Shown here: piece by piece, positions 29,704-44,925 of the stretch
Numbering within the stretch: position 1 is the stretch's first letter
Layout of the letters: every line of letters starts with the position of its first letter
Origin: a virus
Taxonomy: Duplodnaviria > Heunggongvirae > Uroviricota > Caudoviricetes
Strand: one strand, 5' to 3'
Length of the DNA stretch: 45,158 nucleotides
IMG/VR virus record: IMGVR_UViG_3300033067_000531
The notes under the pieces: generated by a model
Told to the model about the DNA's origin: nothing
Database searches by the model: none
Seen by the model: the letters and a program-made list of their open reading frames with translations, nothing else
Program-made: the position numbers and the translations under genes

Positions 29704-30813
29704 TTATCGGATAATCTGAATGTCTTTTCCTGAAGTCCAGACTTCCAATTCACTTCTCAAACGGCCTTCATTGTGTAGTGTTGCATAACGATTGACTGCC
29801 TTGGTTCGCCACCATTCAATCAAGTTTACCAGTTTATGTTTTTCATAGTTTTCACCAGGAATAAGCACGTCCGTCTTACAATTCACATAGTCGACCATGT
29901 TCTTGAAACCATAGTCACTGATGTAATAACGTTTCTGCTCTGTCAACCCTTTAGCCTTCTCAATCGTTTGGTTGAATGTCAGTCCTTCAGGTTTACCTTT
30001 TAAGGCTGCTTTAGTAAGAGCAATAATCCTCATGGTAATCTTTAGTTTCTTGCTAGAGGCCTCTGGATCAACCAATGGTCCCACTTTGCCTTCCACATAG
30101 TCACGTAAATCATCATATGTTTTACCGTGCATCATAGGCACAAAATCACTCTCTGTCAAGCCTTTGTATCTGATATATGGTTTCATGCCATCATATTGCG
30201 ATACTGTCTTAGAACTACCATACAAACTGGTAGTCTCAAACAAACAAAGATTCATTCCATACTTCTTGTTTACAATCTCACGTACTTCGTGACTGGTACA
30301 GATTGCTGCCAACAGTTTACCACCAAGGTAATTGTAACCGAATGGTTGTGCAGGAACGATAACAAAACCCATCATAGATGAATTATTGAATCTCTGACCC
30401 CATTCTTTTTGTTGTGTGAATACTTGACCAAGCATTTCATTACGAGGTTTGCAGTTAATAACTGGAGAACCAAGACGAATGAAACCAACAAACTTACCGG
30501 TTGTGGTTTCTTTGACAGCCAAACGTAATTGACGACCAACAGGTGCAATGTTGATATGTGAACTGGTGATGTTCAACAGGTTTGTCCATGTTTCGTTATC
30601 AATCTCACACACCTCAAAGTTCATATCTTTAGGATGCATGGAGAAGTCCTGAAACAGGTCATCTTCCAATGGGAATAAAGGATTGGATGGTAGGTCTGCC
30701 AGAGAATTTAATTTCTGGTCACGCATGTACTCGTCAATACGATTGAAATTACCGAAGTAATCTTCAAATACTTTTGCACAATGTAGTGCTTCGTCAAACT
30801 TTAAATCCATCAA
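29704..30813 (-). CDS. DruA/DUF4338-like protein
   Basis: GRQLRLAV...GFIRLGSP...PFGYNYLGGKLLA...TTSLYG...SQY. Confidence 0.65.
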   Translation of the reverse strand: MMDLKFDEALHCAKVFEDYFGNFNRIDEYMRDQKLNSLADLPSNPLFPLEDDLFQDFSMHPKDMNFEVCEIDNETWTNLLNITSSHINIAPVGRQLRLAVKETTTGKFVGFIRLGSPVINCKPRNEMLGQVFTQQKEWGQRFNNSSMMGFVIVPAQPFGYNYLGGKLLAAICTSHEVREIVNKKYGMNLCLFETTSLYGSSKTVSQYDGMKPYIRYKGLTESDFVPMMHGKTYDDLRDYVEGKVGPLVDPEASSKKLKITMRIIALTKAALKGKPEGLTFNQTIEKAKGLTEQKRYYISDYGFKNMVDYVNCKTDVLIPGENYEKHKLVNLIEWWRTKAVNRYATLHNEGRLRSELEVWTSGKDIQIIR

Positions 30814-39466: not shown

Positions 39467-40912
39467 TTACAACACTTTGTAACGGTCGTCCATGATGGTT
39501 TTAAGCATCACGGCTTCTGGAGTGAAGGTTTCGATATCACCCGCAAGCATTGGCTTAACCACTGCTGGAGAGAAACCAGAAACCATTGCAACACCAGACT
39601 TGTTGAACTTAACTGGAGCGTTTCCATAAGAAGCGTTCAAGTTCCAGAATACCACACGTGGCATTTCGTAACCTGCTTCTGCATACTTACGTGCAATCAT
39701 TTGGATTGCGCTTTCGTCATATTCAACACCTTGGTCGAATTGCATGTCAGACAAGATTAACAATACCTTAGGCATTTCGTCTTGTGCAACATTACCCTTA
39801 CGAGCAACTTCCAAAATCTTGTCAAATGCACGGTGCAAGTTGGTGTTAGCCACTTCGCCAGTGTTCATTTGGGCAATCTTTTGGTTGATGTTACCCTTCA
39901 AGTTAACCAATTGTGGGTTACGGCTGAAAGTCAAGAAAGTGTCCTTGAACTTACCAGTGTTCTTGTCAGCAAGGTACAATCCCAAAGAGATTGCAACGTC
40001 CAAACAAGACAACCCAGACTTTGAACCATGTCCGCCAGCAGCGCAGGTCATAGAACCAGAGGAGTCAACCAATGGTAGAATGTCTGCATCACCAACGTAG
40101 TTTGGCAAAGCGTCCCATTGTGCTTGGATCAAGTCCAATTCGGTCTTGTCCCAATTCATTGAACGACCATATCCAGTAGAGATACGACCCTTCAATACAT
40201 CGTAAGGGAAAACTGCCGAAGCGTTTACCTTTACTTCAACTGAACGTTCAGCCACTGGCTTCACTAATTCAGCAACGTATTGTGCATACAATGGAGTGTT
40301 GCGGTTGAAAGCCTTTTTGTAACGGGATGCCGCTACGGAAGGCACGTGTGAAAAGTTGATTGAGTTCCAATCCTTTGCACACATTTGGGTTTCAACAACC
40401 TTGGTCATTTCAACCAAGGACTTACGATAGAACTTTGGTGACATTCCGAAGAACGCACGGATTTCTGCCGCAACTTTACCCTTGCGTGGAGTCCACTTTG
40501 CTGCCAAACCATTACGTTCACGCAGCGCATCACCTAACATGGTGTATGCATGAGACTTCATCACATCAGTGTTGAAAACGAAGATATCGTCCCAACGACC
40601 TAATTCTGGCACTTTAGCCAATAGAGCCTTACAGGCTTCTACATCAGTTTTTTCCAAATAACGAAGGATGTTACGGAAAGTTTCACGTTCACCAGCACCA
40701 CCACGAACGTCACGTACCCATGCAGCAACACGTAATGCTAAAGCACGGTCTTGAACGAACGCAGCAACAAAAGCTGGAGTGATATCTTTACCACGGGAGG
40801 CACCGATATTGTAGAACAAATCCACAACTGCATTAGAAGTGGACTTTAAAGCCTTCATACCGTTAGTGGTACGAGCTTCTTGGTTAACAACGGCATTTAC
40901 AAAAGTGTTCAT
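39467..40912 (-). CDS. Ro60/TROVE-like protein (DUF2828-type) with C-terminal vWA domain
   Basis: RDVRGGAGER, GRWDD, AAKWTPR, VPSVA, MIDAS DSSGSM, LSDMQFD, VFWNL; GAAGGA RBS before ATG 40912 (481 aa). Confidence 0.8.
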   Translation of the reverse strand: MNTFVNAVVNQEARTTNGMKALKSTSNAVVDLFYNIGASRGKDITPAFVAAFVQDRALALRVAAWVRDVRGGAGERETFRNILRYLEKTDVEACKALLAKVPELGRWDDIFVFNTDVMKSHAYTMLGDALRERNGLAAKWTPRKGKVAAEIRAFFGMSPKFYRKSLVEMTKVVETQMCAKDWNSINFSHVPSVAASRYKKAFNRNTPLYAQYVAELVKPVAERSVEVKVNASAVFPYDVLKGRISTGYGRSMNWDKTELDLIQAQWDALPNYVGDADILPLVDSSGSMTCAAGGHGSKSGLSCLDVAISLGLYLADKNTGKFKDTFLTFSRNPQLVNLKGNINQKIAQMNTGEVANTNLHRAFDKILEVARKGNVAQDEMPKVLLILSDMQFDQGVEYDESAIQMIARKYAEAGYEMPRVVFWNLNASYGNAPVKFNKSGVAMVSGFSPAVVKPMLAGDIETFTPEAVMLKTIMDDRYKVL

Positions 40913-41397: not shown

Positions 41398-41471
41398 TGG
41401 TGCCCCATGAGAGAATCGAACTCCCATCCTCGGATTACAAAACCGATGTTCTGCCATTTAACTAATGGGGC
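41398..41471 (-). tRNA. tRNA-Thr(TGT)
   Basis: Cloverleaf, TT-TGT-AA, CCA. Confidence 0.93.
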
Positions 41472-41712: not shown

Positions 41713-41787
41713 TGGTCCGGCGTAGAGGAATCGAACCTCTATCAGAAGGGTAGAAGCCTACTGTATTATCCATTATACTAACGCCAG
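41713..41787 (-). tRNA. tRNA-Arg(TCT)
   Basis: Cloverleaf, CT-TCT-AC, CCA. Confidence 0.9.
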
Positions 41788-42231: not shown

Positions 42232-42376
42232 TTCCGAACGACCAACTATCTTTCTCAAGGACTCATTGGCTTGTCTCGTATAGGAGAGTTTAACTACCTT
42301 GTGTTGCTACTGGTGTGTCAGTCTCAAGAATAGGGACCTAGCGCACAAGGGACTCAATCCAAACGTCTAGTTCGAA
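42232..42376 (-). ncRNA. putative structured RNA of unknown class
   Basis: Ends pair (CGAAC-TA-GAC/GTC-GTTCG); internal CTTGTG/CACAAG helix; no ORF. Confidence 0.45.
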
Positions 42377-42380
42377 ATTT

Positions 42381-42455
42381 TGGTGGGTCATCAGAGAATC
42401 AAACTCTGTTCTTCCGGTTAAGAGCCGGTTGCTTCATCACTTAAGCTTATAACCC
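42381..42455 (-). tRNA. tRNA-Lys(CTT)
   Basis: CT-CTT-AA loop; T-loop TTTGATT; CCA. Confidence 0.9.
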
Positions 42456-42610: not shown

Positions 42611-42620
42611 ATAAAATAAC

Positions 42621-42732
42621 AGGATACCTTTTTCGTTGCTCTACCAATTGAGCTAATCTTCCATCAGAAAGATACAGGAATCGAACCTGCGACACACGGC
42701 TTTGAATGCTATGTAGTTGCTGCAAGTATCCT
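42621..42732 (-). ncRNA. scaffold RNA copy D: YrlA-like RNA with circularly permuted tRNA domain
   Basis: AGGATAC-TTG-CAGCAA...T arm, loop-closed 7-bp acceptor stem, D arm...GTATCCT-GTTATTT. Confidence 0.8.
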
Positions 42733-42741
42733 TAAAATAAC

Positions 42742-42839
42742 AGGTTAGTTTTTTTGCAGTGGGAATTGAACCCACAAGGTTTCATTAAAAGTGAAATTGC
42801 CAACCATTGGCGTTGCTTGATTTTTGCTGAACCTAACCT
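42742..42839 (-). ncRNA. scaffold RNA copy E: tRNA-Lys(TTT)-like cargo without CCA
   Basis: AGGTTAG-GTT-CAGCAA...D-like arm, TTTCA-CTTTTAA-TGAAA, GTGGG-TTCAATT-CCCAC...CTAACCT-GTTATTT. Confidence 0.75.
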
Positions 42840-42844
42840 TTAAC

Positions 42845-42920
42845 TGGTGCCACAAACTGGACTCGAACCAGTAACACATGGATTTTCAATCCACCGCTCT
42901 ACCATTGGAGCTACTGCGGC
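42845..42920 (-). tRNA. tRNA-Phe(GAA)
   Basis: Cloverleaf, TT-GAA-AA, CCA. Confidence 0.93.
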
Positions 42921-43313: not shown

Positions 43314-43802
43314 TTATACACCAAGTGCTTCTTGTTCGGCAAGAATCCGTTTCAAACGGTCAGCACAGAACGAAGCAGCAGGTGCATCAGGTTTAACCAT
43401 AGGTGTCATGTTACATGTACCTTTGATATAACCGATAGCTTGTTGCACAACGCATGAAGAACCATGTAGGTCGGATTTGTTCAAGTCCAAATGAACTTCA
43501 ACGTGTCTATCTTCTAATACGTCCTGCATTTCCTGGAACAATTCTGATACCTTGTAAACTTCGGTCATCAGTCTCATTGCAGGTTTGCTTTTCTTGTGGT
43601 CATAGTCAATTTCACGTTGAACATAACCGAAAATCTTACAACCATGGCGGCCATTGATATGAACAACGACAGCCAAAGCATAATCGGCATACCAGACACC
43701 GTTTACTCTGATACGTTCAGAGTCGGCACCAAGGTAAACCTTTGTATCTGAACCTTGGTTCAAGATAAAATCTTTAACTTCTTGAATGTCGAATTTACTC
43801 AT
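43314..43802 (-). CDS. RNase H-like YkuK/DUF458-family protein
   Basis: VYLGADS, AVVVH...G, RLMTEV, EVHLDLN, KPDAPAASFCADR; AAGGTG RBS. Confidence 0.8.
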   Translation of the reverse strand: MSKFDIQEVKDFILNQGSDTKVYLGADSERIRVNGVWYADYALAVVVHINGRHGCKIFGYVQREIDYDHKKSKPAMRLMTEVYKVSELFQEMQDVLEDRHVEVHLDLNKSDLHGSSCVVQQAIGYIKGTCNMTPMVKPDAPAASFCADRLKRILAEQEALGV

Positions 43803-43824
43803 ATCAATCACCTTTCTATAAAAA

Positions 43825-43898
43825 TGGCACCTCGTGAGAGAATCGAACTCCCGCAAACGGACTTGGAAACCGTTGTGCTACCATTACACTAACGAGGC
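43825..43898 (-). tRNA. tRNA-Trp(CCA)
   Basis: TT-CCA-AG loop, G73, U31.U39 mismatch. Confidence 0.8.
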
Positions 43899-43909
43899 AT
43901 ATAAACAAC

Positions 43910-43970
43910 AGGATAATTTTTGCGTTTTCAATTACAAGTTGAATGCTTTTTGATTTGCTGAACTTATCCT
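43910..43970 (-). ncRNA. scaffold RNA copy F: lone Thr(TGT) anticodon stem-loop cargo
   Basis: AGGATAA-GTT-CAGCAA...TTCAA-CTTGTAA-TTGAA...TTATCCT-GTTGTTT. Confidence 0.7.
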
Positions 43971-43975
43971 AAAAC

Positions 43976-44054
43976 TGGCTCCGTGTGAGGGAATCGAACC
44001 CACCTAATCATTGATTAACAGTCAAGTCCTTGCACCTTGCTTGGATTTCACGGA
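43976..44054 (-). tRNA. tRNA-Asn(GTT), atypical D arm
   Basis: CT-GTT-AA loop, G73, CCA. Confidence 0.8.
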
Positions 44055-44140
44055 ATAAAATTGTGTAAGTTCCTACTAGCACCCATCGTTACTTACAACC
44101 GTTGAGCAGCCATGCATCGAAACAAGACTGCTATTTGCTC

Positions 44141-44861: not shown

Positions 44862-44870
44862 ATAAACAAC

Positions 44871-44925
44871 AGGATACGCTTTTTTTCAACCAATAGAAAA
44901 GTTTTGAAATTGCTGAATGTATCCT
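44871..44925 (-). ncRNA. scaffold RNA copy G (minimal, 55 nt)
   Basis: AGGATAC-ATT-CAGCAA...GTATCCT-GTTGTTT. Confidence 0.7.

What the first reader, a model, noticed from the sequence alone, without database searches (positions are those of the whole stretch)
42742..42839. Non-chargeable tRNA-Lys(UUU) mimic in copy E
Seen: GCA...GCCA-ATGGT-TGGC (D-like), anticodon arm TTTCA-CTTTTAA-TGAAA, T arm GTGGG-TTCAATT-CCCAC, then TGC. There are only about 3 bp of acceptor stem and no CCA; the scaffold replaces the acceptor end. No normal tRNA-Lys(UUU) lies in this window. Established: tRNA-Lys(UUU) is the target of the anti-phage nucleases PrrC and PARIS AriB. Inference: a decoy or inhibitor for such nucleases, or a sponge for Lys-tRNA modification enzymes.
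Basis: partly seen in the sequence, partly recalled or inferred. Interest (0 to 1): 0.75.

Follow-up and report, generated by a model that had tools for sequence, protein, structure and literature searches.

The report
Acceptor-less tRNA mimic on Ro60 handle
A freshwater phage encodes a small RNA shaped like a tRNA without its amino-acid end, mounted on a handle shared by RNAs that lie beside a Ro60-like ring protein; it is usually arginine-like, only here lysine-like, and probably acts as bait for bacterial tRNA-cutting defence enzymes, which is untested.

Summary
The structure is real: minus strand 42739-42839, a 7-bp closing stem plus CAGCAA handle around D, anticodon (UUU) and T arms in normal order, a 3-bp acceptor stub and no CCA. 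The 31 distinct homologues covary (99% paired). Two claims fail. Lysine is not conserved: UCU(Arg) 19, UUU 3, others 9, and one UUU/UCU pair is otherwise identical. A normal tRNA-Lys(UUU) lies about 270 nt past the window edge in a 99%-identical contig. The RNA belongs to a handle family beside a DUF2828 protein that folds like Ro60; a homologue, Bas63 gp130, is a reported anti-defence gene. This scan found the family, and proposed the bait idea, before on other DNA. Tested here: cargo anticodon arms match bacterial Arg, Lys and Thr tRNAs (positions 31-39), while the same phages' working tRNAs deviate (35:0 paired; 20:0 at coarser clustering), mainly for those three anticodons (9/112 versus 136/217 E. 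coli-like). That fits bait plus escape tRNA. Binding, expression and protection are unshown, the host is unknown, and lineages are related. It is not YrlA (handle motif and arm order differ). New variant of Ro60/Y-RNA tRNA mimics; bait function about 45%.

The parts
42833..42839 (-). 5' strand of the 7-bp closing stem of the handle
   Evidence: pairs with 42742-42748; 100% paired in 31 homologues, 4 of 7 pairs with double changes
42824..42829 (-). Invariant unpaired CAGCAA motif, presumed protein-binding site
   Evidence: identity 1.0 across 31 class-E sequences; binding is inferred
42814..42816 (-). 5' strand of the 3-bp acceptor stub (pairs with 42756-42758)
   Evidence: stubs of 2-6 bp in all homologues
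42799..42811 (-). D arm with invariant GG (G18 G19 equivalent)
   Evidence: 4 of 4 pairs covary; GG in 31 of 31
42780..42796 (-). Anticodon arm, UUU here, UCU in most homologues; A31-U39 as in most bacterial tRNA-Lys
42759..42775 (-). T arm
42739..42758 (-). 3' acceptor stub, A-rich linker, 3' strand of the closing stem and GUU tail; no CCA
42618..42732 (-). Sister handle RNA (copy D) with permuted, YrlA-like arm order
   Evidence: Rfam YrlA 39.7 bits, E 3e-6, below gathering 69
43907..43970 (-). Sister handle RNA (copy F) carrying a lone Thr(UGU) anticodon stem-loop
44868..44925 (-). Sister handle RNA (copy G), short irregular hairpin
39467..40912 (-). Ro60-fold protein (DUF2828 + DUF7788, PHROG 850), 481 aa, presumed partner
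42845..42920 (-). tRNA-Phe directly upstream; copy E starts a few bases after its CCA

Best explanation
Copy E is one wiring (handle in place of the acceptor stem) of a family of phage Y-RNA-like RNAs. Shown: the gene is conserved, folds as a tRNA elbow plus anticodon arm, cannot carry an amino acid, and lies upstream of a Ro60-fold gene on the same strand. Inferred: it is cut out of the tRNA polycistron by ordinary tRNA processing, binds the Ro60-like ring through the CAGCAA handle (about 80%), and displays a host-type anticodon arm that occupies or is cut by host anticodon nucleases, while the phage's altered working tRNAs keep translation going. The class is mainly Arg(UCU)-like; this copy is a Lys(UUU)-retuned allele.
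For: Covariation: 99.1% of cells paired, 16 of 21 pairs with double changes, slid controls 36-46%. Among UCU members the anticodon arm is the most conserved arm (stem 0.94, loop 1.0, versus D stem 0.48 and T stem 0.64). Positions 31-39 of class-E UCU equal the modal bacterial arm in 18 of 19, the phages' own tRNA-Arg(UCU) in 6 of 40; UUU cargo 10 of 14 versus own tRNA-Lys 2 of 31; UGU cargo 22 of 23 versus own 1 of 41; paired by lineage 35:0, 20:0 and 7:0 at 95, 85 and 80% clustering. Working tRNAs are E. coli-like in 9 of 112 for these three anticodons and 136 of 217 for seven others. Lys(UUU) and Thr(UGU) are the main targets of AriB, Thr(UGU) of P2-OLD, Lys of PrrC and RorSlfn5, and tRNA-Arg a lesser target of GkaRloC. 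The protein folds like Ro60. All 7 distinct class-E sequences found without the protein that have the gene within reach on their contig have it downstream on the same strand. Bas63 gp130 (39% identical) counters Ppl defence.
Against: No binding, expression or protection data; the one RNA run held only relatives. gp130 alone rescued T7, without any handle RNA. Resistant phage tRNA-Thr did not shield host tRNA from P2-OLD by competition. Copy E has G40 and UCU members lack U39, so neither fits the E. coli AriB site exactly. No phage-defence nuclease with Arg(UCU) as main target was found in the papers searched. 56 of 67 short cargos have A31-U39 whatever their anticodon, so part of the match may be intrinsic to the scaffold. 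Lineages are related, the host is unknown, and the bacterial sample is small and skewed. 9 of 31 members carry other anticodons, some not decodable (UCA).
Confidence: 0.45

Rival explanations
1. Classical Y-RNA role: the handle binds the Ro60-like ring and the tRNA body tethers a host RNase such as PNPase or gates the ring; the anticodon is an inherited leftover of a tRNA-Arg(UCU) gene.
For: This is the shown role in Deinococcus and Salmonella and, in vitro, for Thermus phage phiLo. The elbow (GG in the D loop, UUC in the T loop) is invariant, and the anticodon changes in 12 of 31.
Against: Does not explain why the anticodon arm is the best conserved arm, why most short sisters are nothing but an anticodon stem-loop with consensus C32 U33 A37 A38, or the contrast with working tRNAs.
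Confidence: 0.2
2. Sponge or recruiter for enzymes that read the anticodon arm: t6A37 or xm5U34 modification enzymes, or Arg, Lys and Thr synthetases.
For: 61 of 98 cargos are U34-N-U36 against 136 of 1195 working tRNAs; these anticodons share both modifications (established knowledge). PrrC activity depends on modifications. Host-like arms would suit these enzymes too.
Against: The phage needs the same enzymes for its own tRNAs. UUC and UUG, which share the U34 modification, are almost absent from the cargo.
Confidence: 0.15
3. Sensor: the loop is a tripwire; its cleavage by a host nuclease releases or activates the Ro60-like protein or recruits RNA repair.
For: Predicts the same host-like arms. 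Y RNAs gate Ro60. The protein is active against Ppl on its own.
Against: No direct evidence; no RNA ligase or kinase was identified among the window proteins scanned (the genome is incomplete here).
Confidence: 0.12
4. One reading: the class is a dedicated tRNA-Lys(UUU) decoy for PrrC or PARIS that stands in for a missing tRNA-Lys.
For: This allele equals the modal bacterial Lys arm at 31-39, and differs from the modal class-E arm at 31, 35 and 39 together.
Against: UUU in only 3 of 31; the other two UUU copies keep the Arg-type C31-G39; the phage has a normal tRNA-Lys(UUU).
Confidence: 0.05
5. Decaying tRNA pseudogene captured inside a repeat.
For: Weak folding z-score; a few members have odd anticodons.
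Against: Compensatory changes in all four helices, 31 intact variants, varied positions in the cluster.
Confidence: 0.03

Closest known systems
YrlA Y RNA with Ro60/Rsr (Rfam RF02553; Chen et al. 2014, PMC4201824)
   Same: About 100-nt RNA with a closing stem, a short unpaired 5' motif and a tRNA-like D/T elbow, encoded within 4 kb of a Ro60-fold gene on the same strand.
   Different: YrlA has GNCGAAN0-1G and the order T, closed acceptor, D, with the Ro stem at the anticodon position. Copy E has CAGCAA, the order D, anticodon, T, keeps a full anticodon arm, and has the handle at the acceptor. The protein is DUF2828, not Pfam TROVE.
Thermus phage phiLo Ro60 with Yrl1/Yrl2 (PMC12135203; PDB 9KOP, 9L5Y)
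   Same: Phage Ro60 fold (best structural match) with several small RNAs upstream.
   Different: 14-16% identity; CGAA motif; no tRNA anticodon cargo reported in the passages read; acts on PNPase in vitro.
Bas63 gp130 (PhageMaP, bioRxiv 10.1101/2024.10.10.617714)
   Same: Same protein family (39% identity), beside a tRNA cluster; the authors guessed that Y RNAs lie there, and four handle RNAs do.
   Different: The RNAs were not identified; the protein alone counters Ppl; no class-E RNA was found in Bas63.
Nuclease-resistant phage tRNAs (T5 versus PARIS; PMC10264068; PMC12445682)
   Same: Same conflict, and the working tRNAs here show the expected deviations.
   Different: Those replace cut tRNA and are charged; copy E cannot be charged and keeps the host-type arm.
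Canonical tRNA (Rfam RF00005)
   Same: D, anticodon and T arms with the usual invariant bases.
   Different: No 7-bp acceptor stem and no CCA.

Membership tests
YrlA Y RNA | Within 4 kb of a Ro60 orthologue, same strand | tested here: met
   1.8 kb upstream of a Ro60-fold gene; homologues 0.2-9 kb
YrlA Y RNA | GNCGAAN0-1G motif near the 5' end | tested here: not met
   0 of 215 handle RNAs and 0 class-E RNAs; CAGCAA instead
YrlA Y RNA | Permuted tRNA module (T, closed acceptor, D) | tested here: not met
   Copy E is D, anticodon, T; neighbouring copy D is permuted
YrlA Y RNA | Rfam RF02553 gathering score | tested here: not met
   No YrlA match listed for copy E at E up to 5; copy D 39.7 of 69 bits
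YrlA Y RNA | Bound by the Ro60 protein; carries tRNA modifications | not testable with these tools
   Needs binding assays and modification mapping
tRNA | D, anticodon and T arms with invariant bases | tested here: met
tRNA | 7-bp acceptor stem with NCCA end | tested here: not met
   2-6 bp stubs running into the handle in all 31
tRNA-Lys(UUU)-specific mimic | UUU anticodon conserved among homologues | tested here: not met
   3 of 31
AriB substrate (E. coli B185) | U36-A-A-U39-C40 at the cut site | tested here: inconclusive
   Copy E keeps U39 but has G40; binding without cleavage not excluded
Ro60/Rsr (partner protein) | Helical-repeat ring plus vWA domain | tested here: met
   Model pLDDT 75.7; Foldseek E 2e-9 to 9KOP; VIA Z 15.1, rmsd 5.3, 393 aligned; top ten rows all Ro60
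Ro60/Rsr (partner protein) | Pfam TROVE match or sequence similarity to solved Ro60 | tested here: not met
   Only DUF2828 and DUF7788; no Ro60 chain by phmmer or profile

The most novel reading that the evidence does not exclude
Many phages carry a retunable library of uncharged anticodon baits (bare stem-loops, acceptor-less bodies like copy E, permuted tRNAs) on a Ro60-like ring, which neutralises tRNA-cutting defences; the baits would also reveal a common, undescribed defence nuclease against tRNA-Arg(UCU).
Probability: 0.4. Interest if true: 0.85.

Novelty: new variant of a known kind. Interest (0 to 1): 0.66.

Why it matters
Known phage answers to tRNA nucleases are resistant spare tRNAs and repair enzymes. 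An RNA bait would be a third kind, and would give a function to a Ro60-like family found in about 700 phage records, including Felixounavirus, Listeria, Campylobacter and mycobacterial phages. The anticodons on the baits would predict which tRNAs are attacked in nature (Thr-UGU, Arg-UCU, Lys-UUU, Ser-GGA). The idea can be tested in Bas63, for which a knock-out library is reported.

Tried and rejected
No whole genome is held; L231 served instead. A first viral pattern was too loose and gave noise. The bacterial tRNA pattern had one N too many, so that sample is enriched for copies with a one-base insertion; the first tally was discarded for host counts and redone with ARAGORN, one gene per genome. 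With only the 7-nt loop, UUU shows no contrast, and U32 in Thr(UGU) is common in bacteria (22 of 43), so the loop-only test overstates the Thr case. L073 was removed as a false parse. Read-laying gave contigs only: two runs carry the copy E region without differences, and there is no evidence of expression. No class-E RNA was found in cultured phages. Ten paper searches found no description of these RNAs; the library lacks most subscription journals. The class-E tree is mostly unresolved, so the direction UCU to UUU is by majority only. Complex prediction was not used because it does not score RNA.

Full report
Observation. On the minus strand, 42739-42839 reads: a 7-bp closing stem, three bases, CAGCAA, an A-rich linker, a 3-bp acceptor stub, D arm, anticodon arm (loop CUUUUAA), T arm, the other half of the stub, an A run and the closing strand. 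Rfam scores the core as tRNA (32.3 bits) and ARAGORN ignores it. None of 200,000 shuffles of the insert gives both arms in tRNA spacing. The description is right. The remark that no tRNA-Lys(UUU) is present is an edge effect: contig L231, 99.1% identical, extends 794 nt further and has a CCA-ending tRNA-Lys(UUU).

Setting. The window is from a T4-like phage (family B polymerase, UvsX, helicase); the sequencing runs that carry a label and share part of it are freshwater or aquatic. Copy E lies in a cluster of more than 20 tRNAs, 1.8 kb upstream of a 481-aa DUF2828 protein. Its model is helical repeats plus a vWA domain, and the ten best structural matches are all Ro60 proteins. The family has matches in 701 phage records. 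In 85 related loci the handle occurs 267 times, 263 on the plus strand of loci mostly oriented to the gene, and never in shuffled controls. Cargo falls into bare anticodon stem-loops, acceptor-less D-anticodon-T bodies (class E), permuted YrlA-like modules and longer RNAs. Handle RNAs also lie near the gene in five cultured phages, Bas63 among them.

Class E. Protein-anchored loci and pattern scans, two of which left the loop free, gave 31 distinct sequences. All four helices covary. Anticodons: UCU 19, UUU 3, UCA 3, UCC 2, and CAU, CCG, UAU, UGA once each. A37 is invariant and U34 occurs in 29. L019 (UUU) and L032 (UCU) differ only at position 35, and UUU sits on three branches. Class E nearly always follows a tRNA's CCA, though the tRNA differs, which suggests release by tRNA processing (inference). 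Of 16 distinct sequences found without using the protein, 7 have the gene downstream on the same strand; the other 9 have at most 3.4 kb of sequence held downstream.

Test of the bait idea. A bait should look like the host's tRNA while the working tRNA should escape. Over positions 31-39 the modal bacterial arm (16 of 22 genomes for Lys, 12 of 19 for Arg-UCU, 13 of 43 and tied for Thr-UGU; all equal to E. coli) is matched by 10 of 14 UUU cargos including copy E, 18 of 19 class-E UCU and 22 of 23 UGU cargos, but by only 2 of 31, 6 of 40 and 1 of 41 working phage tRNAs. Within loci the contrast is 35:0, 20:0 and 7:0 when lineages are merged at 95, 85 and 80% protein identity; without Thr it is 17:0, 10:0 and 4:0. 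For seven other anticodons the working tRNAs are E. coli-like in 136 of 217 cases, against 9 of 112 for these three. In this phage, tRNA-Lys has G31-C39 while copy E has the host-type A31-U39. Limits: shared ancestry inflates the counts, the host is unknown, the bacterial sample is skewed, and short cargos favour A31-U39 anyway.

Known nucleases. AriB cuts Lys(UUU), Thr(UGU) and Asn(GUU) and needs U39 (10.1101/2025.02.04.636281); copy E keeps U39 but has G40. P2-OLD prefers Thr(UGU) (PMC12445682). PrrC cuts Lys and accepts stem-loops; GkaRloC also cuts tRNA-Arg (PMC3025547). Bas63 gp130 counters Ppl and does so without RNAs, so the protein has at least one RNA-independent effect.

Mechanism. 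Shown: conserved fold, no chargeable end, linkage to a Ro60-fold gene, host-like anticodon arm. Inferred: expression, binding through CAGCAA, bait function (0.45). Rivals are a classical Y-RNA tether (0.2), a sponge for modification enzymes or synthetases (0.15), a cleavage sensor (0.12), a Lys-only decoy (0.05) and a pseudogene (0.03).

Comparison and novelty. It works like a Y RNA, but it is not YrlA: motif and arm order both fail. It is not a tRNA. I found no paper describing the RNAs. This scan reported the handle family, and the bait idea for bare stem-loops, on other DNA; those notes are not evidence. What was tested here is the acceptor-replacing wiring, its Arg(UCU) bias, and the contrast with working tRNAs. 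Verdict: new variant of a known kind, interest 0.66.

Noticed in passing
window 42381-42455 (-): A CCA-ending tRNA with anticodon CUU (Lys) and an unusual T loop; Rfam 50 bits, missed by ARAGORN.
   Followed up: partly
window 43976-44056 (-): A second tRNA-Asn(GUU)-like gene with an irregular D arm; Rfam 24.1 bits, below threshold.
   Followed up: no
window 42240-42370: Non-coding stretch without Rfam match that contigs of several relatives share with small indels, in the RNA run too; possibly another structured RNA.
   Followed up: no
window 43314-43856 (-): RNase H-like gene (PF04308, PHROG 11311) inside the tRNA cluster.
   Followed up: no
window 44870-44924 (-): Copy G scores 30.5 bits (E 0.011, below gathering) against Dictyostelium Class I RNA.
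   Followed up: no
L235:13718-14555 (Bas63): Four handle RNAs between the annotated tRNAs; one is permuted with an anticodon-like arm and overlaps the annotated hypothetical gene bas63_0137 on the other strand, which may be spurious.
   Followed up: partly
L234:13758-13824 (Pseudomonas phage Milchi): Handle RNA with a bare Lys(UUU) anticodon stem-loop just before the real tRNA-Lys: a cultured test case.
   Followed up: partly
L035:9637-9733, L074:8017-8112, L023:986-1080: Permuted handle RNAs with ACCA encoded in the acceptor loop, so processing could give a chargeable end, as reported for M. smegmatis YrlA.
   Followed up: no
L003, L007, L014, L015: ARAGORN calls class-E RNAs as ordinary tRNA-Arg or tRNA-Lys, so phage tRNA counts can include them.
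   Followed up: partly
window 29704-30813 (-): Protein with a Druantia DruA match (PF14236, E 3e-10) in the replication region.
   Followed up: no
window 41398-41471 and 41713-41787 (-): The working tRNA-Thr(UGU) has a U31-U39 mismatch and tRNA-Arg(UCU) has C38 and a stem mismatch, as expected of escape variants.
   Followed up: yes
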